DNA of 51,638 nt from assembly GCA_964568355.1 (NCBI GenBank), contig CAZMRK010000030.1:1-51638 (forward strand). Reading direction: 5' to 3'. This document shows positions 40,077 through 49,466 of the stretch, in pieces. The notes below the pieces were generated by a model. That model was not told the DNA's origin. It did no database searches and worked only from the letters and a program-made list of their open reading frames with translations. The stretch's first letter is position 1. Each line of letters starts with the position of its first letter. This DNA comes from an uncultured Solibacteraceae bacterium. GTDB taxonomy: Bacteria > Acidobacteriota > Terriglobia > Bryobacterales > Bryobacteraceae. The translations under genes were made by a program, and so were the position numbers.

Positions 40077-41171
40077 ATGCAATCAGACGCCATTAACTTC
40101 TCCCGCCTGATGGATATGCGGGCGGAATCCGACCTTCGGCTCGTCGATTTCGCGCCTCGCACGATGCTGCGTGTGCCCTCTCATCAGGTGGACCGATCTC
40201 GCTTCCCCGTGATCGACTTCCACAATCACCTCGATGACTTCGAGCCGGACGCCGTTCTGCGCATCATGGATGACTGCAACGTCGAGGCCGTGCTCAACAT
40301 TACCACCGCTCCCGGAAGCGATGGGTTGGCGGTCTTGAAGCGATTCCACAATGCGGCGCCCGATCGTTTCTATACCTGTATGTGGATGGACTGGAGGGAT
40401 ATCGCTGTGCCCGGATTCTGGGTCCGTACAGTGCAGCGCCTGGAACAGTTCGTGCAGGCCGGAGGCGTCGGCCTAAAACTATGGAAGGACTTGGGTCTGT
40501 CGGTCCGCGATTCCAGCGGTGGCCTGCTCCGGATTGACGACGAGCGCCTTGCTCCCCTGTTCGACAAAGCCGCCGAACTCGGCGTCTTTGTCATGTTCCA
40601 CACCGCGGACCCTGAAGCATTTTTCCAGCCCGTTGACCGCTACAATGAGCGTTTCGAAGAACTCGTCGCACATCCGGATTGGTCATTTTGCGGATCTGCC
40701 CTCACCCAGCAACAGGTCCTCGCGCAACGTAACCGCGTATTTCAACGGCATCCCAAAACTCAATTCTTGTGCGCGCACATGGCGGAGCAAAGCGAGAATC
40801 TCGCATCGCTGGCCGCGCTTCTCGACGACCATCCCAACGTTTCGGTGGATCTTAGCGCGCGAGTGAACGAACTCGGCCGGCAGCCATTCACCGCCCGTCG
40901 CTTCCTGATCAAGTACGCGGGCCGCATCCTGTTTGGCACCGATCTGCCGGTGGATCAATCTGTTTACCGCTCGTCTTTTCGCTTCCTGGAAACGGAAGAC
41001 GAGTATTTTGAGTATCCGTCGCATGCCTCCCGCCAGGGACGATGGATGGCATACGGGCTGGGCTTGCCTGATTCCGCGTTGCGCAAAGTCTATCGGGAAA
41101 ATGCGCGCAGACTCTTGCGTCAATCGAAACGACAGCGCTCTGGCAAGTCTCCGCAGGGAGCGCGCGATTAA
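40077..41171 (+). CDS. amidohydrolase_2-family metal-dependent hydrolase (TIM barrel; family includes sugar lactonases)
   Basis: FPVIDFHNHLDD is the HxH metal motif. VFVMFHTADP and LFGTDLP are also typical. The ORF opens at TTG 40035, overlapping the AKR stop, so ATG 40077 is preferred. Confidence 0.8.
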   Translation: MQSDAINFSRLMDMRAESDLRLVDFAPRTMLRVPSHQVDRSRFPVIDFHNHLDDFEPDAVLRIMDDCNVEAVLNITTAPGSDGLAVLKRFHNAAPDRFYTCMWMDWRDIAVPGFWVRTVQRLEQFVQAGGVGLKLWKDLGLSVRDSSGGLLRIDDERLAPLFDKAAELGVFVMFHTADPEAFFQPVDRYNERFEELVAHPDWSFCGSALTQQQVLAQRNRVFQRHPKTQFLCAHMAEQSENLASLAALLDDHPNVSVDLSARVNELGRQPFTARRFLIKYAGRILFGTDLPVDQSVYRSSFRFLETEDEYFEYPSHASRQGRWMAYGLGLPDSALRKVYRENARRLLRQSKRQRSGKSPQGARD

Positions 41172-41292: not shown

Positions 41293-41428
41293 TTTCGACG
41301 CGTAGAACATTTTGCCGCCTCTTTTCGACAGACGACAGTGGATTTCGACGACCGATCCTGCTATGCTGATTTTCGACGACGAGTCGTGGATTACGGTATT
41401 TTTCGACGCTCGTTCAGCTTTTTCGACG
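41293..41428 (+). repeat. array of six direct TTTCGAC(G/A) repeats phased at 20-30 bp, ending 2 nt before the Fic start codon
   Basis: The copies lie at 41293, 41323, 41343, 41371, 41401 and 41421. Five are TTTCGACG and one is TTTCGACA. The spacings are 30, 20, 28, 30 and 20 bp. A TATAGTAT element lies at 41281..41288, just upstream. Confidence 0.85.
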
Positions 41429-41429
41429 T

Positions 41430-42983
41430 ATGAAGCTCGATCTTGCACCACCCGTTATCTTCCAAGAGAAATCCCTGCCGCCGGTCACCCGGCTCGCCGG
41501 GTGGTCGGCCCTCGTGCAGGCACTTGGCATCTCCGCTCCGGTGCGGCATCCGAGCTGCGTCTCTGAACAGTACGTCCGTGGCAGCCGGCGCGAAGAGGGC
41601 GGCTGGGTTGTCTTCGACAAGCGCTACTGGCCGGGTGAGAACTTCTCAGACCATCTCCTCTTTGCCCTTCGTCATGAGGACCTCGACCTCCTAATCCTGA
41701 AGCGCGTGTTCGACGCCGTTCCGACGGCAGAGTTTGAGGCTCTGGTTCGTGGCGAGTCGACATCCGTCCAAGTTCGCCGCGCGTGGTATTTGTACGAGTT
41801 CCTCACCGGACGCACGCTCGATGTCGCCGGCGTACCGCGAGCCGCTACCATTGACATCCTCGATCCGAAGATCTACTTCACCGGCAAACCGCGCGCGTCG
41901 CGCAGGCATCGTGTGCGCGATAACCTTCTCGGGACCGCGCGTTTCTGTCCGGTGATACGCAGAACCAAGACTCTGGAAAATTCTGTCTCCCTTGATCTCG
42001 CCGCAAAAGCGCGCGAGACGGTTGGCAGGACTGGCGCACACCTCGTTGCACGCGCCGCGAGTTTCCTCCTCCTCGCTGACAGCCGCGCCAGTTTTGAGAT
42101 CGAAGGGGAACGACCGCCGCGGAATCGACTCGAGCGATGGGGACGCGCTGTCCTCCAGGCCGGCAAGAATCCTCTTACCCTGGATGAGATCCTGCGCCTG
42201 CAAAGCGTTCTCATCGAGGACACGCGGTTCGTTCGCGCGGGCTTGCGCCCGGACGGAGTTTTCCTCGGCGAACGCGACCACCACGGCGATCCGCTTCCGG
42301 AGTTCATTGGGGCTAGGGCACAAGATCTCACGGATCTGATGGCTGGCCTGTTGGAAGCGAACGATCGCATGCGCGAGGATGGCATCGACCCGGTGCTCAA
42401 AGCGACTGCCACGGCCTTCGGCTTCGTCTATATCCACCCATTCGAGGACGGCAACGGACGGATGCACCGCTGCCTCATTCATCACGTCCTGGCCGAGCGT
42501 AAGTTTACGCCGCCCGGCATGGTGTTTCCCGTTTCATCCGTCATGCTCGACCGGATCGATCATTACCGGGCGACGCTACAAGGCCATTCCGGTCCACTGA
42601 TGCCCTTCATCGAATGGCGTCCCACCCTGTCTCGGAACGTCGAAGTCCTCAACGACACAGTCGACCTCTACCGCTATTTCGACTGCACCGAAGAAGCCGA
42701 GTTTCTCTATTTGTGCGTGCGGCGAACCGTTGAAGAGGATTTGCCGCGCGAAATCGACTACCTGCGCCGCCACGACGAGGCAATCCATAGGATCATGGAC
42801 GCTGTCGAGATGCCGGACCGCATTGCAGAGAATCTAGTCATGTTCATCCGTCAGAATGACGGTTCTCTGTCCAAGAATCGTCGCGACCACGAATTCAAGG
42901 CATTGCGCGATGATGAAGTCGCGTTGATCGAAGGCATTGTCCGCGAAGCATTCGAGGGCTTCGAGGGCACGCCCGCCGCCTAG
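41430..42983 (+). CDS. Fic-family protein (class II, N-terminal auto-inhibitory helix)
   Basis: The Fic motif is HPFEDGNGRMHRCLIHHVL. The inhibitory motif [S/T]xxxE[G/N] appears as SFEIEGE upstream in the same chain. The protein is 517 aa with N- and C-terminal helical extensions. Confidence 0.9.
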   Translation: MKLDLAPPVIFQEKSLPPVTRLAGWSALVQALGISAPVRHPSCVSEQYVRGSRREEGGWVVFDKRYWPGENFSDHLLFALRHEDLDLLILKRVFDAVPTAEFEALVRGESTSVQVRRAWYLYEFLTGRTLDVAGVPRAATIDILDPKIYFTGKPRASRRHRVRDNLLGTARFCPVIRRTKTLENSVSLDLAAKARETVGRTGAHLVARAASFLLLADSRASFEIEGERPPRNRLERWGRAVLQAGKNPLTLDEILRLQSVLIEDTRFVRAGLRPDGVFLGERDHHGDPLPEFIGARAQDLTDLMAGLLEANDRMREDGIDPVLKATATAFGFVYIHPFEDGNGRMHRCLIHHVLAERKFTPPGMVFPVSSVMLDRIDHYRATLQGHSGPLMPFIEWRPTLSRNVEVLNDTVDLYRYFDCTEEAEFLYLCVRRTVEEDLPREIDYLRRHDEAIHRIMDAVEMPDRIAENLVMFIRQNDGSLSKNRRDHEFKALRDDEVALIEGIVREAFEGFEGTPAA

Positions 42984-43451
42984 TCTGCTGCAGAGCGCAG
43001 TGCGGCGGCAGGCGATTTTTGCGCTTAGCTTTCGCTGTGCCGGGGGCCAGCACGGTATAGTGAATCTCCGTTTGACGTATCGTGACTTGCCGGAGGCCCC
43101 GAGTTCCGTCACTGCGAGATCGGTGAGGTACGCAAGGAAGAGGCAAATCGCGTCTTCGTAGCTCAGCGGCACCGCCGTCGGGTTCAACTCGGCCTCCAGG
43201 CGGCGTGCCGCCAAATCCTGCTGGTATGCGACGAGCGTGAGCTGCTGTTTGATTGAATCCAGGCGGCGCCTGGGCGCGCCACTAACGAGGGCATCGAGAC
43301 TCTTCCGCAATGCTTCCGAACCCACATAGAGCAGGCCGTCGTCAGAGACCCAGATGGAAGAGGAGACCGTGTAGATCGCGTTCAAATCACCATCCCGCTT
43401 ACCGAGTCCCAATTCGATGAGATGCGGATCGAGATCGTCTTCTCCATTCAC
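42984..43451 (-). pseudogene. N-terminal fragment of an Hsp70/actin-like ATPase-fold protein, truncated at the Fic 3' end
   Basis: LIELGLGKRDGDLNAIYTVSSSIWVSDDGLLYVGSEA and SYEDAICLFLAYLTDLAVTELG...VKRRFTIPCW follow the Hsp70-NBD pattern (phosphate-1-like hairpin, then ...vPa...). The track ORF (42834..43451) runs on as antisense shadow of Fic for 150 nt. The assignment is tentative. Confidence 0.4.
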
Positions 43452-43470
43452 GCCCGCCGTCTATCCTGGC

Positions 43471-44172
43471 TCAGTCGTACAGGCCGCGCCCGTCATTGCA
43501 GACGAATGTGATCGCGTCCCACGCGACGGACGGGTACTTGGCGGCGTCGAATCGCATCGCGCCGTCGAGGTCGTGGTCGTACTCGATATCGAACGCCAAC
43601 GTGATGCCCGAGACGTCCGTCCGCGGCAGGTGCTTCAACCGGAGGTGGTTGCGGCCGGAAATCAGTTGGCGGATCTGGTCGTCCGTCATGCCGCGCTTCC
43701 GGAGGTCGTCAATCTTGACCTTGCCCTTGACGAGATCCTGCCGGAGCGCGTTGGTCTGCATCTCCTGGGTGCGCCTCTCCCAGGTCTCGTGCATGTCGGA
43801 GTAGTCTTTGTAAATAATCGCGCCCGCCGCCACGACGCCCGTGGCCAGCAACGCCCACGGGTTGGCCGCGAGCGCAATCGTCAACGCGCGCACCGCCGCC
43901 ACGATCCCCATGATCTTGGCGGCGATGGCGTAGGTCGCCAGGATTCCCGCCAGCCAGATCGCCATCCGGCCGAACTTCTCGATCAGGCCGATGTTGTCCT
44001 TGAGCCAGGACACCATGTCGCGCAGGTGGCCGACGACGGCTTTCAACTCACCCTGGAAAGCATTGCCCTCGTCCTGCTTGAGATCCACCACGTCGGGCCC
44101 GAGCGCCTTCATCTGTCCAGCCAGGGTGCTAGAAGGGCGCCGGACCGTGTTGCTGAATCCGGCGTGAATCAC
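43471..44172 (-). CDS. hypothetical membrane protein with a tape-measure-protein-like hydrophobic core
   Basis: FGRMAIWLAGILATYAIAAKIMGIVAAVRALTIALAANPWALLATGVVAAGAIIYKDYSDM resembles the LxANPxxLxxxxxxAxxxxxxxYKNW segments of phage tape-measure proteins. The start is uncertain: GTG 44172 overlaps the methyltransferase remnant, and ATG 44112 is an alternative. Confidence 0.45.
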   Translation of the reverse strand: MIHAGFSNTVRRPSSTLAGQMKALGPDVVDLKQDEGNAFQGELKAVVGHLRDMVSWLKDNIGLIEKFGRMAIWLAGILATYAIAAKIMGIVAAVRALTIALAANPWALLATGVVAAGAIIYKDYSDMHETWERRTQEMQTNALRQDLVKGKVKIDDLRKRGMTDDQIRQLISGRNHLRLKHLPRTDVSGITLAFDIEYDHDLDGAMRFDAAKYPSVAWDAITFVCNDGRGLYD

Positions 44173-44866
44173 GAAGTCGCGGATTGTCGACTTGCTCCTG
44201 CGGTACGCCGCGCGCGGCCGCGACCTCTGAAATGGGCTGCCCAGTGTCCGCGAGGATTGCTCCTTCGCCAGCGAGGTTCGCCATGCGTCGCAGGATTACA
44301 TCGCAATAGGCCGGCGAAATCTCGCAGCCGTAGCCGGTCCGACCGAGCACGTGGGCCGCAGCCATCGTGGTTCCTGAACCCATGAAGGGGTCGAAGACCG
44401 CGTCGCCGGCGTCCGTGAACGCTTTCACGAAGAATTCCACTAGGGCGCGGGGGAATGGAGCGGAGTGCGATCCCTGGCTGCTCTCCGACTTGACTTCGAT
44501 TACGTTGCTCGGGCGGGCAATGCCGGTGAACCGGCCATCGCTCTCGCTTGCGTCTGGCTGTGCCGCGGCCGCACCCCGAGCGCCGGTACCAAGAAGGCCA
44601 CTACCGGATGTCGACTTGGGATTGTTCGGTGAGTAGTCAAAGCAGTGCTCGGACTCGTGCCCGACCGCCCGCGGCCGGAACTTGATCTGCTGCCGCCAGC
44701 AGAAGTGATAGATCGGTTCGAAGGCGTTCTTAAACCTGTTTCCCCAACCGCCGGGCACGCCGTTGTCGGTTTTGCGCCAGCAGAACTCATCCACGAACCG
44801 CCAGCATCGCAGCTGGTAGCGGGCGTCGCTTCCTGCATAGGGAAATCCAAGTTTAAGGAGTGTGAA
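44129..44866 (-). pseudogene. 5'-truncated beta-class N4/N6 DNA methyltransferase (lacks the N-terminal DPPY motif IV)
   Basis: The C-terminal AdoMet motif I is DAVFDPFMGSGTTMAAAHVLGRTGYGCEI. The middle region reads CWRKTDNGVPGGWGNRFKNAFEPIYHF. My upstream translation stays family-like (FTLLKLGFPYAGSDARYQLRCWRF) up to an in-frame TAA at 44869..44867. No DPPY region precedes it. Confidence 0.7.
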
Positions 44867-45382: not shown

Positions 45383-47221
45383 CTATGCCATGCCTTCGAT
45401 GCGCCGGCGGCAGAGGTCCAGCGCCTCCACTGTCATCTGCCGCGTTTCATCGCTCAGCTGGATGGCCTTCGGAACTGCGATCCCGTCGAGCGCCCCGCGC
45501 AGTCGCTGCACAACCTCATCCACAGCGCCTTCCGCGTCGCCGGCCCGCAGACCAGCAGTCGTCGCCAACGCCTCGAAGTCAGCGCGACGGAGGTTATCAT
45601 CCTTGCCGTTGAGCTTAAGCGCGAGGCGGTCATGTCTCAGCTTCGGGAAGACACGTGTCGTCACGGCATCGTAAAGCGGCGCAAGCCGCACGGTGCGGAA
45701 CTGCCTGTCGTCCGGCTCGGCGGTCTTGAGCAGCGCCATGTTTTTGAGATGCATGTCCCCGTCGGCGATCAGCCAGGCGAAGACCGCGCGCTTCACGATG
45801 ATGAGCAGATCCTCTTCGGGGGCCGTGGACAGCGGGCGGACGGCGCGTGCGACGCGCTCCATGGTGCTGTCGTACTTCGCGCTCGTCGGCAGATCCAGAA
45901 CGGAGCACATGTCTTCCAGCGCCAGAAATCGCGTGTCGGCATTGCTCTCGCGAATATCGAAGCGCTCGACAAGGAGTGCCGGCGGCATCCTGTCCGGCAT
46001 GGCGACAAGCGCGGTCTCCGGCGCTTCGAAGCCGGCCGCCCGGCCGAGTTCCATCGCCATCCACTCCACGACCGGCAGTGCATCATAGCCGCTGGTCCCG
46101 GCGGGCTTGAGGATATGGGTGAACGGCTTTCCGGTCGCGGGCGAGAGAACGCCCTTTTCATCAAGGCACATGGGCGCCTTGATCTGCACGCCCGAGAGGC
46201 GCGGCGTATCCGCGCGCGCGTAAATCTGCGCGAGGGTGCGCTCGAAGTTCTTCTCGATTTCGCCCCGGCCGGGTCCTTCGTAGGCGCCGGTAAAGACGCC
46301 GCCTTTGGTATAACCGGCCAGCGGCCTCAGGAGGACGTCCTGCGGTAGCTGCCTGAGCTCCGACTCCTGTTCAACAATCGTGATATTGGACGTGTAGCGC
46401 TTCCCAGACCGCAGCAGCGCGCGCTCGTCCTTGTCCTGGAGAACCTGCTCCAGCCAGCCTTCCGGCAGCAGCGAGACGATGAACGGCGGCAGTCTGCCGG
46501 GCGTTGTCTGCCGAATGAGCGGCGGCCCGTCGACCTCGCCCGGCTTCCACCGCCACTCGAACCCGTCGTGAATCAGGCGCCCCAGAGGCACGCCGTGCCA
46601 GGCGACGATGAGATCCAGCGCCGCCTCGTTCTTTGCGGGCGCAGCGCTCGGCCGTCGCAGCAGGTAGCGCTCCGCCGCCTCCCCCTCGCGATACCACTCG
46701 TTTTCGCGCGCCAGTGTCCAGACCGCATCGGCCGCGCCTTGTGCAGAGCCATATTCCTCGATCAGGCGCGCAGCAATCGAGCCCCGCATGTCGTCATTGA
46801 TCGATGCCGCGTGCTCACTGCGCAGACGGAATGCCTCAAGGAAGCGCTGGCGGATTGATGAGACGGCAATCCGGAACTCGCCCATGCCGTCGTCGATGAC
46901 GCCCTCGCCGACGGATGGATGCGCTGGGGCCTCGTTCTGGATGATTTCCAGTGCACGGATGCGGGTGCGTTGCTTGCGCCTGGCGCTCAGAAAAAGACGT
47001 CCGTCCGGGGTTGGCCCGAGCAGGACGGCGCTCGCGGCCGACAGGTAAGCTTGGGGGTAGAGATATTTGGCGATACGGACGGCGTGCCGGAGGACGGTGA
47101 CTTCGATGTCGTCTTCCGCGTCGACGTAGATGCCGCGCATGAGCTGAACGAGTTTCCCGGTTTCGGCCCGGTAGTGGCTGCGGGTCTTGTCGATCGTTTC
47201 GCCAACGAGGTGTAGCGCCAT
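45383..47221 (-). CDS. HipA-family Ser/Thr kinase toxin homologue with a ~190-aa N-terminal AbiEi-like extension
   Basis: The protein is 612 aa. From about residue 200 it has LDLIVAWHGVPLGRLIHDG (HipA coupling domain), LSGVQIKAPM (Gly-rich loop), DGDMHLKNMALL (catalytic loop) and APLYDAVTT. Residues 1 to about 190 are extra. They include GKLVQLMRGIYVD and AKYLYPQAYLSAASAVLLG..LFLSARRKQ. Confidence 0.88.
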   Translation of the reverse strand: MALHLVGETIDKTRSHYRAETGKLVQLMRGIYVDAEDDIEVTVLRHAVRIAKYLYPQAYLSAASAVLLGPTPDGRLFLSARRKQRTRIRALEIIQNEAPAHPSVGEGVIDDGMGEFRIAVSSIRQRFLEAFRLRSEHAASINDDMRGSIAARLIEEYGSAQGAADAVWTLARENEWYREGEAAERYLLRRPSAAPAKNEAALDLIVAWHGVPLGRLIHDGFEWRWKPGEVDGPPLIRQTTPGRLPPFIVSLLPEGWLEQVLQDKDERALLRSGKRYTSNITIVEQESELRQLPQDVLLRPLAGYTKGGVFTGAYEGPGRGEIEKNFERTLAQIYARADTPRLSGVQIKAPMCLDEKGVLSPATGKPFTHILKPAGTSGYDALPVVEWMAMELGRAAGFEAPETALVAMPDRMPPALLVERFDIRESNADTRFLALEDMCSVLDLPTSAKYDSTMERVARAVRPLSTAPEEDLLIIVKRAVFAWLIADGDMHLKNMALLKTAEPDDRQFRTVRLAPLYDAVTTRVFPKLRHDRLALKLNGKDDNLRRADFEALATTAGLRAGDAEGAVDEVVQRLRGALDGIAVPKAIQLSDETRQMTVEALDLCRRRIEGMA

Positions 47222-47844: not shown

Positions 47845-48441
47845 ATGAACACCATTGCGAAAATGATCGTCGCGCGAGCCAAGCGGCACGGAGCCGGTTG
47901 GGTGTTCTCTGCCAAGCACTTAACCGATCTCGGCGACCGCGCGGCAATTGATCAGGCACTCAGCCGCCTAGCCAAGGACGGTCGAATTCGTCGTCTGGCC
48001 CGTGGGCTTTACGACTTGCCGAAAATCCACCCCGTCCTTGGTCCGCTCTCGCCAAATCCAGACGCCGTGGCGGCTGCCGCCGCAGAGCAGGCCGGCCACC
48101 GTCTTCAGATTTCTCCCGCACGTGCTGCCAACGTGTTTGGGCTTTCGTCGCAGGTGCCGGCGAAGGCGGTATATCTGACCGATGGCAGTTCGCGACGCAT
48201 CAAGATCGGGAATCAGGTGGTCTATCTGAAGCACGCGGGGCCGCGTGCCCTGCTCGGCTCCGGCACCCAGGCTGGTGCCGCACTTCAGGCGTTGAGAGCA
48301 GTTGGCAAAGACCACATAAACGACGGCGTTGTGCAGCAGCTCCGTTCGACGCTCCCGTCCGATGCCAAACACGGCCTTCGCAAGTTGATGCACCAAGCTC
48401 CGCAATGGACGGCGCCGGTCATCGCCGCCATCACCGCATAG
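47845..48441 (+). CDS. AbiEi-family (type IV TA) antitoxin / transcriptional regulator
   Basis: The 198-aa protein has VFSAKHLTDLGDRAAIDQALSRLAKDGRIRRLARGLYDLPK (wHTH ending in RGxY), followed by the AbiEi C-terminal-type domain. Its TAG stop abuts the ATG of the AbiEii gene (TAGATG). Confidence 0.82.
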   Translation: MNTIAKMIVARAKRHGAGWVFSAKHLTDLGDRAAIDQALSRLAKDGRIRRLARGLYDLPKIHPVLGPLSPNPDAVAAAAAEQAGHRLQISPARAANVFGLSSQVPAKAVYLTDGSSRRIKIGNQVVYLKHAGPRALLGSGTQAGAALQALRAVGKDHINDGVVQQLRSTLPSDAKHGLRKLMHQAPQWTAPVIAAITA

Positions 48442-49466
48442 ATGAACAAGTTCGCTTTGCTCCCTGCTGCTGATCGGGCGGCCGTCCTGCAGGAGACTGC
48501 CGCGAGAATGGGGATTGGGTCTCCAGCAATCGTTGAAAAGGACTTTTGGGTATGCTGGACGCTCGGCCAGATCTTCACGGCCGACTCGCTACCCGGACCA
48601 TTATTCAAAGGCGGCACCTCGTTATCGAAGGTCTACGGAATCATCGCCCGCTTTTCAGAAGACGTCGACATTGTCCTCGACCGACATGTGCTGGGCTTCG
48701 AAGGCGATGGTGACCCAATTAATATCACCGGCACAAACCGACGCAACCGCCGCCTCGACGAGCTCGCGGCCGCGTGCTCGCAGACTGTCCAAGGTCAGTA
48801 CGCGACGCGCTCCAGAAGCGTTTCCAATCGGAACTGGGTAATGCGGGTTGGTCGATAACTCCAGATCCTGCCGATCGGGATGGTCAGAGTCTTCTGTTCG
48901 CATATCCCGTTGGCCTCGAGCCACGGCTCTATGGAGCGGTAGGTTACATCCATCCCGTCGTCCGACTCGAATTCGGATGCCGCGGAGATATCTGGCCGAC
49001 GGAGCACCGCACGATCCAAGCTTACGTAGCTGAGCAGTTTCCGGACCTTTTCGGATGGGCTGAATGCTCGGTTCACGTGCTTCGTCCCGAACGGAAGTTT
49101 TGGGAAAAAATCACGCTGCTCCACGCCGTCACGCATTCCGGCAAGACGCCACCACGCCTTTCTCGCCACTACTATGATGTCTCTCGAATGTACCGGCACG
49201 ATGTCGGCCCCCAGGCGATGGCCGATCCGGCTTTGCTGGAAGCTGTTGTTAAGCACAAGAGTGTCTTCTTCAGAGAGGCTGCGGCGAGATACGATTTGGC
49301 AGTGCCAGGCTCGCTGAAAATCGTTCCTGGCGACGAACTGGAGCGGGCTGTTCGCCGCGACTACCGGGAGATGCAGGAAATGTTTTTCGGGGAAGCGCCG
49401 GCGTTCGATGACGTCCTCTCGGACATTCGCGAGATCGAGCAGCGAGTGAACTCCAAGCCGGTTTGA
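48442..49466 (+). pseudogene. AbiEii/AbiGii-family nucleotidyltransferase toxin, interrupted by one frameshift
   Basis: Part 1 (48442..48858) contains EKDFWVCWTLGQIF...LFKGGTSLSKVYGIIARFSEDVDIVL, the nucleotidyltransferase core. Part 2 (48774..49466, another frame) continues with RLEFGCRGDIWPTEH...KFWEKITLLHAV...LSRHYYDVSRMY. The frames overlap at 48774..48858. The switch most plausibly lies near 48795..48800. Confidence 0.8.

What the first reader, a model, noticed from the sequence alone, without database searches (positions are those of the whole stretch)
41293..41428. Helically phased array of six TTTCGAC(G) direct repeats butting against the Fic start codon
Six copies of an 8-mer (five TTTCGACG, one TTTCGACA) lie within 136 bp at spacings of 30, 20, 28, 30 and 20 bp. 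These are near-integral helical turns, so all copies face one side of the helix. The last copy ends 2 nt before the ATG. The array is not explained by any coding frame: the antisense 180-aa ORF across it is a repeat artefact. It looks like an iteron or cooperative operator array, for example a relic plasmid or ICE origin, or a binding platform for a repressor controlling the Fic gene. The motif matches no box I can name (not DnaA, parS, PhoB or CtrA).
Basis: seen in the sequence. Interest (0 to 1): 0.62.

Follow-up and report, generated by a model that had tools for sequence, protein, structure and literature searches.

The report
Self-operator array of a mobile Fic gene
The six repeats are real and form a promoter-spanning docking array that travels with a stand-alone Fic (protein-AMPylating, candidate anti-phage) gene through many bacterial phyla. 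Co-variation between the repeats and one residue of the protein suggests that the Fic protein binds them to control its own expression, so this is not a relic replication origin.

Summary
Six same-strand TTTCGAC copies lie at 41293-41428, spaced 30/20/28/30/20. This is the only such cluster in the 7.4-Mb genome.

The array is not a local oddity. About 155 loci from at least five phyla carry a 68-90% identical Fic gene. Nearly all keep the same six sites as two rigid triads (30, then 20 bp). The triads flank a conserved extended -10 box. Repeat 3 sits on the -35 region, repeat 4 on the predicted transcription start, and repeat 6 against the start codon.

No neighbouring gene is conserved. The unit runs from repeat 1 to the stop codon and sits in unrelated contexts. 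Relatives at 27-55% identity keep the 30/20 geometry but use different words. Within the TTTCGAC clade, the base after each repeat changes in concert at all six sites and tracks residue 50 of the N-terminal domain (Ser with G, Lys with C). This held in an independent set of loci.

Best reading: an autoregulatory operator bound by the Fic protein's own N-terminal domain, which is weakly Rv2827c/AbiEi-like. The protein is a PADLOC PDC-S24 family, class II Fic. Binding and repression are inferred, not shown. The iteron or origin-relic reading and any RNA-element reading are rejected.

The parts
41293..41300 (+). Repeat R1 (TTTCGAC+G), first site of the distal triad. It marks the left edge of the conserved module.
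   Evidence: Conserved at about -136 from the ATG in relatives.
41323..41330 (+). Repeat R2 (TTTCGAC+A), 30 bp after R1.
   Evidence: The R1-R2 spacing is 30 in nearly all loci.
41343..41350 (+). Repeat R3 (TTTCGAC+G), 20 bp after R2. It overlaps the -35 region and spacer of the inferred promoter.
41339..41344 (+). -35-like hexamer TGGATT (3 of 6 to TTGACA). The TGG is conserved 5' of R3 only. Inferred.
   Evidence: Consensus 'anTggtTTTCGAC'. It lies 17 bp upstream of the -10.
41359..41367 (+). Extended -10 element TGc-TATGCT between R3 and R4. Inferred promoter.
   Evidence: TAnnnT lies between R3 and R4 in 68 of 79 loci, against 36% of shuffled intervals. It sits exactly 3 nt before R4 in 50 loci, and TG precedes it in 27.
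41371..41378 (+). Repeat R4 (TTTCGAC+G), first site of the proximal triad. It covers the predicted transcription start (about 41374-41376).
   Evidence: The start position is inferred from the -10 only.
41401..41408 (+). Repeat R5 (TTTCGAC+G), 30 bp after R4, in the predicted 5' UTR.
41421..41428 (+). Repeat R6 (TTTCGAC+G), 20 bp after R5. It ends one base before the ATG. In most relatives it lies between an AAGGA Shine-Dalgarno sequence and the start codon.
   Evidence: An SD-like triplet lies 5' of R6 in 69 of 78 loci. The window's own copy lacks one.
41430..42983 (+). Fic gene, 517 aa. It is a PADLOC PDC-S24 family member and a class II (cis-inhibited) Fic. The conserved module ends at its stop codon.
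   Evidence: Pfam Fic over aa 248-354. PDC-S24 E = 6.7e-185. Nucleotide homology to L001 spans 41308-42983.
41430..41984 (+). N-terminal domain (aa 1-185), the proposed DNA-reading module.
   Evidence: AF2 pLDDT 93.7. The only meaningful PDB fold hit is Rv2827c, 1ZEL (E 0.02, prob 0.91, TMq 0.45). The aa 131-185 stretch is net +7, within a basic aa 131-247 region (net +11) that runs past this domain.
41577..41579 (+). Codon 50 (Arg here), in the loop VxGSRR. This residue co-varies with the base that follows each repeat.
   Evidence: It is the top mutual-information column of the protein. Ser goes with G and Lys with C.
42090..42107 (+). Inhibitory motif SFEIEG (aa 221-226), the class II Fic auto-inhibition helix.
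   Evidence: Translation. I224 and E225 are nearly invariant.
42435..42470 (+). Catalytic Fic motif HPFEDGNGRMHR (aa 336-347).
   Evidence: Translation. D340, G341, N342, G343, R344 and R347 are invariant in 63 family members.

Best explanation
The array is the cis-regulatory operator of a self-contained, horizontally mobile single-gene module. The module consists of the operator-promoter, about 140 bp, followed by a class II Fic gene of the PADLOC PDC-S24 family.

Two rigid triads of direct repeats (sites 30 and then 20 bp apart) flank an extended -10 promoter. R3 lies on the -35 region and spacer. R4 lies on the transcription start. R5 and R6 lie in the short leader, with R6 wedged between the ribosome-binding site and the ATG.

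The Fic protein itself most likely binds one repeat per N-terminal domain (aa 1-185, basic, weakly Rv2827c/AbiEi-like). A loop around residue 50 would read the 3' edge of the site. Cooperative occupation of up to six sites would occlude RNA polymerase, and possibly the ribosome site, holding production of a potentially toxic AMP-transferase at a low, self-limited level.

Shown here: the anatomy, its conservation, its exclusive linkage to the gene, and the co-variation between protein and site. Inferred: actual binding, the sign of regulation (repression), the stoichiometry and the transcription start.
For: 1) Conservation. In 79 genome loci (Fic 68-90% identical; Acidobacteriota, Alpha-, Beta- and Gammaproteobacteria, Binatia, Chloroflexota, Planctomycetota), 72 keep at least 5 of 6 sites. 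Spacings R1-R2 = 30, R2-R3 = 20-21, R4-R5 = 30 and R5-R6 = 20-21 hold while the spacers diverge. An independent set of 76 metagenome loci shows the same.

2) Promoter logic. TAnnnT, often preceded by TG, is fixed 3 nt before R4 in 50 loci and present in 68 of 79, against 36% of shuffles. The TGG 5' of R3 fits a -35. An SD precedes R6 in 69 of 78 loci.

3) Exclusive linkage. No neighbouring ORF is shared by more than 4 of 81 loci. Flanks are unrelated, and nucleotide homology runs from the array to the stop codon. In 401 genomes of the phylum the exact triad pattern occurs 4 times in 3 genomes, each time directly upstream of this Fic family, and 0 times for the reversed control. The gene is single-copy, and no second site pair exists in the genome.

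4) Same geometry, other words. Relatives at 27-55% identity carry 30/20 triads built from ATCCCGG, TTTTCATAA/C, ATTTTTCAC, GGTGAAT, TAATCGT..GCGACAT, TATAGTTTTWYCATGA and an 18-bp GTAAAGA..GGC unit.

5) Concerted evolution. The base after TTTCGAC is homogeneous within a locus (z = 11.7, 0 of 2000 permutations). Position 7 gives z = 6. The flanking control positions are near random.

6) Protein-site code. Residue 50 is the top mutual-information column of the 517 residue positions scored. Ser goes with G in 16 of 16 loci and Lys with C in 13 of 14. In held-out loci Ser goes with G in 24 of 28 and Lys with C in 4 of 5, while Arg and Gly are unselective. On a tree of 118 loci, Lys/C has 7 independent contrasts with none opposed, sign-test median p = 0.03. 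Sister loci L068 (Arg/A) and L069 (Lys/C) are one example.

7) Protein. The AF2 model is confident (pLDDT 94). Residues from about 180 to 517 superpose on SoFic, CbFic2 and CccR-type Fic proteins. The N-terminal 185 aa hit only Rv2827c, an AbiEi-family autorepressor. The aa 131-247 region is net +11.

8) Precedent. CccR, a Fic toxin, represses its own promoter by binding repeats at -35/-10 (PMC9755527). Rv2827c and AbiEi autoregulate through repeat arrays (PMC7319586).
Against: The window's own promoter is weak by consensus. The simple sigma-70 scan finds nothing. The -35-like hexamer matches 3 of 6, and this copy lacks the SD seen in relatives.

The similarity of the N-terminal domain to Rv2827c is marginal (E 0.02, TMq 0.45). 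No sequence-level support exists: Pfam gives nothing at E <= 10, the PDB profile search gives nothing, and hhalign against the window's AbiEi gives probability 0.07.

No canonical winged helix was identified by eye in the model.

The Ser/G association is not significant after phylogenetic correction (median p = 0.22). The window itself is an exception to the simple code, with Arg50 and G at 5 of 6 sites.

Known relatives (CccR, AbiEi, Rv2827c) use inverted repeats, not direct ones. How one protein would produce an alternating 30/20 register is not explained.
Confidence: 0.75

Rival explanations
1. The repeats are an operator, but they are bound by a host-encoded regulator or nucleoid protein rather than by Fic.
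For: The DNA-binding fold of the N-terminal domain is not securely identified. Arrays of short phased sites are typical of some global regulators.
Against: The array crosses at least five phyla with the gene and with no other gene. The word changes with divergence of the Fic protein while the geometry stays. All six sites change in concert and track residue 50 of Fic. There is no second cluster or correctly spaced pair elsewhere in the genome, so there is no regulon.
Confidence: 0.1
2. The array doubles as, or is primarily, a recombination or mobility site that lets the Fic cassette move. The repeats would be arm-type sites for a recombinase acting in trans.
For: The module has sharp edges, from R1 to the stop codon, and unrelated flanks in every genome. 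It lies at the edge of a junk or defence island here. One plasmid copy lies next to a tyrosine recombinase.
Against: No recombinase is conserved nearby. No copy of the word or of the array is found at the 3' end. The positions of the repeats are locked to the -10 box and the ATG, which fits expression control and not strand exchange.
Confidence: 0.06
3. The repeats act in RNA, as a leader bound by an RNA-binding protein or as a structured riboregulator that controls translation.
For: R5 and R6 are predicted to be transcribed, and R6 abuts the start codon.
Against: There is no Rfam match. The region folds worse than its shuffles, z = +1.98. RNAalifold on 32 loci gives -0.6 kcal/mol and no covarying pair. 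A conserved -10 box lies in the middle of the array, so R1-R3 would not be transcribed from it.
Confidence: 0.04
4. The array is a set of iterons or a relic replication origin of a plasmid or ICE.
For: The repeats are direct, clustered and roughly phased. The family is common on plasmids, in 268 PLSDB records.
Against: No Rep or Par gene is conserved beside it. The core is 7-9 bp at 30/20 spacing, not 17-22 bp units at about 22 bp. The array is always at a fixed distance from the Fic ATG, in chromosomes as well as plasmids. On plasmids it sits away from the replicon genes except by chance.
Confidence: 0.02

Closest known systems
CccR of Yersinia pseudotuberculosis (Fic toxin that is also its own repressor; PDB 7XUX; PMC9755527)
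   Same: It is a class II-type Fic enzyme that carries a DNA-binding module. It represses its own promoter by binding repeated sites at the -35/-10 region. It has a one-gene toxin-plus-regulator logic. The structure aligns with the Fic part of the model.
   Different: CccR binds through a C-terminal HTH as a dimer to two inverted 10-bp repeats 26 bp apart. Here the C-terminal helices are acidic. The candidate reader is a 185-aa N-terminal domain that CccR lacks. The sites are six direct repeats in a 30/20 register.
AbiEi / Rv2827c antitoxin-autorepressors of AbiE/MenAT systems (PDB 1ZEL, 6Y8Q; PMC7319586, PMC3985639)
   Same: They give the only structural match of the N-terminal domain (1ZEL). 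These proteins autoregulate by cooperative binding to several repeats in their promoter.
   Different: The match is weak (E 0.02, TMq 0.45) and has no sequence support. AbiEi proteins are separate antitoxins paired with a nucleotidyltransferase toxin, and they bind inverted repeats. Here the domain is fused to a Fic enzyme and the repeats are direct.
SoFic / Coxiella CbFic2 (class II Fic with HTH; PMC10628234)
   Same: They are the best structural matches for residues from about 180 to 517. They have the same inhibitory-helix and Fic-motif architecture. In CbFic2, DNA binding drives dimerisation and switches AMPylation to de-AMPylation, which sets a precedent for DNA controlling enzyme state.
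   Different: CbFic2 DNA binding was shown with a randomised (non-specific) 20-bp duplex, and no operator is described. Those proteins lack the 185-aa N-terminal domain and the repeat array.
Plasmid iterons (Rep-binding direct repeats)
   Same: They are clustered same-strand direct repeats that also serve autoregulation.
   Different: Iterons are 17-22 bp units at about 22-bp intervals, next to a rep gene, an AT-rich unwinding region and DnaA boxes. None of these is present or conserved here.

Membership tests
PADLOC PDC-S24 (candidate single-gene phage-defence family) | Full-length match to the PDC-S24 profile | tested here: met
   E = 6.7e-185, aa 21-509 against profile positions 5-490 of 497.
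PADLOC PDC-S24 (candidate single-gene phage-defence family) | Protects against phage | not testable with these tools
   No paper mentions PDC-S24 in the searchable library. The gene lies beside HipA, AbiE and phage-remnant genes, which is only circumstantial.
Class II (cis-inhibited) Fic AMP-transferase | Catalytic motif HxFx(D/E)GNGRxxR | tested here: met
   HPFEDGNGRMHR at aa 336-347. The core residues are invariant in 63 members. Pfam Fic E = 1.1e-14.
Class II (cis-inhibited) Fic AMP-transferase | Inhibitory (S/T)xxxE(G/N) helix N-terminal to the Fic core in the same chain | tested here: met
   SFEIEG at aa 221-226, on predicted helix 203-224.
CccR-type self-repressing Fic | Repeated sites overlapping the gene's own -35/-10 | tested here: met
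   R3 and R4 flank a conserved extended -10. This is a comparative inference.
CccR-type self-repressing Fic | C-terminal HTH that binds inverted repeats as a dimer | tested here: not met
   The repeats are direct. The C-terminal aa 401-517 are net -12 with an acidic last helix.
AbiEi / COG5340 DNA-binding antitoxin domain | Fold of Rv2827c/AbiEi | tested here: inconclusive
   Foldseek top hit is 1ZEL with E 0.02, prob 0.91, TMq 0.45. The next hit has prob 0.06.
AbiEi / COG5340 DNA-binding antitoxin domain | Sequence match to AbiEi families (e.g. PF13338) | tested here: not met
   No Pfam hit at E <= 10 for aa 1-240. hhalign against the window's AbiEi gives probability 0.07.
AbiEi / COG5340 DNA-binding antitoxin domain | Paired AbiEii/DUF1814 toxin gene downstream | tested here: not met
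   The domain is fused to Fic, and no conserved neighbour exists.
Iteron-type replication origin | Adjacent rep (and par) gene | tested here: not met
   No ORF outside Fic is shared by more than 4 of 81 loci.
Iteron-type replication origin | 17-22 bp units at a regular interval of about 22 bp | tested here: not met
   The conserved core is 7-9 bp, spaced 30/20/22-32/30/20.
Known cis-regulatory RNA (Rfam) | Match to a covariance model, or conserved covarying structure | tested here: not met

The most novel reading that the evidence does not exclude
The array is more than a repressor site. It would be a DNA scaffold that lines up five or six Fic molecules in a fixed alternating 30/20 register and holds them in an inactive (de-AMPylating or auto-inhibited) oligomeric state. 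Promoter occupancy and enzyme state would then be coupled.

Loss of the DNA-bound state, for example through phage-induced DNA damage, degradation or titration, or a fall in Fic concentration, would both de-repress the gene and release active AMPylase. That would make it a one-polypeptide toxin-antitoxin-sensor.

The Ser/Lys-50 to base +8 relationship would be a simple, re-programmable recognition code for a new family of DNA-reading domains.
Probability: 0.15. Interest if true: 0.8.

Novelty: new variant of a known kind. Interest (0 to 1): 0.58.

Why it matters
Fic enzymes are widespread toxins and regulators. Only a few, such as CccR, are known to control their own genes.

Here a large, uncharacterised family of candidate phage-defence genes carries a portable promoter-operator of unusual design. 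In the two searches run here alone, each capped at 600 pattern matches, about 550 relatives turned up; 268 plasmid records carry the family, 125 of them from Pseudomonas. The operator has direct repeats in a strict 30/20 register that stays constant from Acidobacteriota to Pseudomonas plasmids while the recognised word drifts.

This gives:
(i) a ready-made explanation of how a potentially toxic one-gene module can land in a new host and stay silent;
(ii) a family-wide signature that helps annotate start codons, promoters and module boundaries;
(iii) a concrete, testable protein-DNA recognition hypothesis (residue 50 against the base after the repeat) for a DNA-binding domain with no Pfam family;
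(iv) a natural set of orthogonal repressor-operator pairs.

Tried and rejected
- **RNA element.** Rfam at E <= 10 gave only noise. The single-sequence fold is weaker than its shuffles. RNAalifold on 32 loci found only a trivial TCGA/TCGA pairing and no covariation.
- **Consensus sigma-70 scan of the window.** No hit. The promoter call therefore rests on comparative conservation, not on this copy's strength.
- **Coding explanation.** The antisense 180-aa and sense 84-aa ORFs have no Pfam family, and the repeat spacing is out of frame.
- **Conserved partner gene (antitoxin, rep, par, recombinase).** None found.
- **Regulon.** No other cluster or correctly spaced pair in the genome.
- **Sequence-level identification of the N-terminal domain.** Pfam, the PDB profile, hhalign against the window's AbiEi and the BFVD fold search were all negative.
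- **C-terminal three-helix bundle as the DNA reader (CccR/SoFic analogy).** Disfavoured, because it is acidic.
- **Phage origin.** No tblastn hit in 50,697 phage records.
- **Literature.** 'PDC-S24' returns no paper, and no paper found describes this array.
- **Phylogenetically independent contrasts on 50 loci.** Underpowered. With 118 loci, Lys/C reaches p of about 0.03 but Ser/G does not.

Full report
**Observation.** The + strand of the window carries TTTCGAC at 41293, 41323, 41343, 41371, 41401 and 41421. Five copies are followed by G and one by A. Start-to-start spacing is 30, 20, 28, 30, 20. The last 8-mer ends at 41428, and the 517-aa Fic ORF starts at 41430.

The window is contig C30 of a 7.37-Mb, 62% GC assembly. 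That genome has 1,240 copies of the 7-mer on both strands. This is the only place with three or more same-strand copies less than 60 nt apart. The eight other close pairs match the chance expectation of about 6.3, and none is spaced 20 or 30. The word is therefore not over-represented, and the cluster is not chance.

The ORFs that cross the array have no family match. Spacings of 20 and 28 are out of frame, so coding does not explain the array.

**Surroundings.** Upstream lies an amidohydrolase gene that ends at 41171. Downstream lies a junk or defence island. It holds a tape-measure fragment, a truncated N6/N4 methyltransferase, a HipA kinase and a frameshifted AbiEi/AbiEii pair.

The Fic protein has a Pfam Fic core at aa 248-354. 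It carries the catalytic motif HPFEDGNGRMHR (aa 336-347) and the class II inhibitory motif SFEIEG (aa 221-226). It matches PADLOC's candidate defence family PDC-S24 over its full length (E = 6.7e-185). It is single-copy in the genome.

**The array travels with the gene.**
- The protein has thousands of close relatives.
The best 80 are 68-90% identical. They come from Acidobacteriota, Alpha-, Beta- and Gammaproteobacteria, Binatia, Chloroflexota and Planctomycetota.
- In nearly all of these the TTCGA core recurs at about -136, -106, -86, -58, -28 and -8 from the start codon.
- In a MAFFT alignment of 79 upstream regions the repeats are the only strongly conserved blocks.
- 72 of 79 loci keep at least 5 of 6 sites with at least 6 of 7 matches, and 48 keep all six.
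- R1-R2 is 30, R2-R3 is 20-21, R4-R5 is 30 and R5-R6 is 20-21. R3-R4 ranges from 22 to 32.
- The array is therefore two rigid triads joined by a flexible linker.
- An independent set of 76 metagenome loci shows the same anatomy.

**Promoter logic.** The linker holds a TAnnnT hexamer in 68 of 79 loci, against 36% of shuffled linkers. It sits exactly 3 nt before R4 in 50 loci and is preceded by TG in 27. In the window this element is TGc-TATGCT at 41359-41367.

A TGG is conserved only 5' of R3. It lies 17 bp upstream of the -10 and fits a weak -35 (TGGATT, 41339-41344). The transcription start is then predicted inside R4, at about 41374-41376. R5 and R6 fall in a leader of about 55 nt. R6 lies between an AAGGA ribosome site, present in 69 of 78 loci, and the ATG.

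So R3, R4 and R6 each abut a signal needed for expression. The caveats are these. The window's own promoter fails a simple consensus scan. This copy lacks the SD. No RNA data could be obtained.

**No partner gene.** All-against-all comparison of flanking ORFs in 81 loci finds nothing shared by more than four loci outside the Fic gene itself. The window's flanks match none of the loci. Nucleotide homology to the closest relative runs from 41308 to 42983, that is, from the array to the stop codon.

In 401 genomes sampled across the phylum, the exact triad pattern occurs four times in three genomes. Each occurrence is directly upstream of a member of this Fic family. The reversed control pattern occurs nowhere.

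The family is on 268 plasmids and in no phage record.

**Who binds the array?** Three lines of evidence point to the Fic protein.

(a) More distant members (27-55% identity) come from metagenomes and from Rhizobium, Agrobacterium, Ketogulonicigenium, Pseudomonas and Acinetobacter plasmids. They keep 30/20 triads directly upstream of the start but with different words:
- ATCCCGG (spacing 30, 20, 35, 30, 20);
- TTTTTCRTAA;
- ATTTTTCAC;
- GGTGAAT;
- TAATCGT..GCGACAT;
- TTTTCATAC;
- TATAGTTTTWYCATGA;
- an 18-bp GTAAAGA..GGC unit.
By a strict criterion, 8 of 17 such loci score, where shuffles almost never do. Most of the rest show degenerate versions by eye.

(b) Within the TTTCGAC clade, the base following the repeat is far more uniform among the six sites of one locus than expected (0.676 against 0.511, z = 11.7, 0 of 2000 permutations). 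The C/T at position 7 behaves likewise (z = 6). Neighbouring control positions are near random. Genome composition therefore does not explain the effect.

(c) That base co-varies with one residue of the protein.
- Column 50, in the loop V-x-G-S-R-R of the N-terminal domain, has the highest mutual information of all columns (1.24 bits against 0.97 for the next). Of the top 40 columns, 22 lie in aa 1-185.
- Ser50 goes with G in 16 of 16 loci, Lys50 with C in 13 of 14 and Gly50 with A in 4 of 4. Arg50 goes with A or C.
- In the held-out metagenome loci, Ser goes with G in 24 of 28. The other four are mixed with G most frequent. Lys goes with C in 4 of 5. Arg and Gly are mostly unselective.
- On trees, residue 50 changes at least 14 to 23 times.
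- Lys/C arises in several well-supported independent lineages, for example sisters L068 (Arg/A) and L069 (Lys/C).
- With 118 loci, the independent-contrast sign test gives median p = 0.03 for Lys/C and p = 0.22 for Ser/G.
- The window has Arg50 with G at five sites. Its 90%-identical sisters have Ser50 with G.

**Structure.** AF2 on a 63-sequence alignment gives pLDDT 94.4. Foldseek aligns residues from about 180 to 517 with SoFic, Coxiella Fic2, a Mycobacterium marinum Fic and CccR.

The N-terminal 185 residues were modelled alone (pLDDT 93.7). Their only hit above noise is Rv2827c (1ZEL), an AbiEi-family autorepressor (E 0.02, prob 0.91, TMq 0.45). There is no sequence-level support, and the BFVD fold search was uninformative.

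Residues 131-247 are net +11, whereas aa 401-517 are net -12. The N-terminal part is therefore the better candidate DNA reader, not the CccR-like C-terminus.

**Rejected readings.**
- RNA element: no Rfam hit, a fold weaker than shuffles, and no covariation.
- Iteron or origin relic: no rep or par gene, the wrong unit size and spacing, and a position locked to the ATG and the -10.
- Host factor: contradicted by word drift, concerted change and the residue-50 relationship.
- A role in cassette mobility cannot be excluded, but nothing positive supports it.

**Comparison with what is known.** CccR shows that a Fic toxin can repress its own promoter. It does so through a C-terminal HTH dimer on two inverted 10-bp repeats 26 bp apart (PMC9755527). 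Rv2827c and AbiEi autoregulate through several inverted repeats with cooperativity (PMC7319586). CbFic2 shows that DNA binding can switch a Fic enzyme between AMPylase and de-AMPylase (PMC10628234).

The present system works like these, as a self-repressing toxin-like enzyme. It differs in three ways: the reading domain, the use of direct repeats, and a six-site 30/20 architecture conserved across phyla. No paper on PDC-S24 or on this array was found.

Earlier unchecked notes of this scan describe the same kind of array in other genomes. I treated them as leads and re-derived the evidence here.

**Verdict.** The feature is real, highly non-random and functionally constrained. I am very confident that it is the promoter-operator of the Fic gene. 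I am fairly confident (about 0.75 to 0.8) that the Fic protein itself binds it, through its N-terminal domain. Repression, stoichiometry and the start site are inferred. It is a new variant of a known kind.

Noticed in passing
window 41577-41579 (codon 50) versus L001 and L099: The window's Fic has Arg50, while its 90%-identical sisters have Ser50. All three keep G after the repeats. This looks like a recent Ser-to-Arg change without an operator change. In the wider data Arg50 appears unselective for that base.
   Followed up: partly
window 41409-41429: This copy lacks the AAGGA Shine-Dalgarno sequence that precedes repeat 6 in 69 of 78 relatives. The sequence here is GCTCGTTCAGCTT. Translation initiation may be weak or SD-independent in this organism.
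   Followed up: no
L082:1-4554: A 36%-identical family member sits inside a type I restriction-modification operon. An upstream ORF ends 73 bp before it, and an HsdS (Methylase_S) gene overlaps its stop. It has only one 30/20 triad, with a TATAAT between the first two sites.
   Followed up: partly
L095 (P. aeruginosa megaplasmid pNY5532-OXA) and 125 Pseudomonas plasmid records: Distant members (about 28% identity) are common on large Pseudomonas plasmids from clinical isolates. They carry an 18-bp repeat unit in the same 30/20 register.
   Followed up: partly
L090, L098 (plasmid loci): In some distant members the array is a continuous five-site 30/20/30/20 series, with the third site of one triad serving as the first site of the next. 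In L090 and L091 the start codon is part of the last repeat (TTTTCATG).
   Followed up: partly
L008:1662-2039: A second, partial copy of the Fic 5' region (71% identical over 382 nt) lies about 1 kb upstream of the complete gene in this Solibacteraceae MAG.
   Followed up: no
window 42834-44794: Directly after the Fic stop come a convergent ORF without a family, a tape-measure-like fragment (233 aa) and a truncated N6/N4 DNA methyltransferase. These are remnants that make the Fic module the edge of a decayed mobile island.
   Followed up: no
window 45383-47221 and 47845-49466: A 612-aa HipA-C kinase has a long N-terminal extension. A nearby AbiEi (DUF6088/AbiEi_4) gene is paired with a frameshifted AbiEii. 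Both were already noted by other readers of this window.
   Followed up: no
window 41293-41428: The repeat core contains the palindrome TCGA. This produced the only (trivial) RNAalifold pairing. It would also be a target for TCGA-specific methyltransferases. Words of other subfamilies lack it, so it is probably incidental.
   Followed up: no
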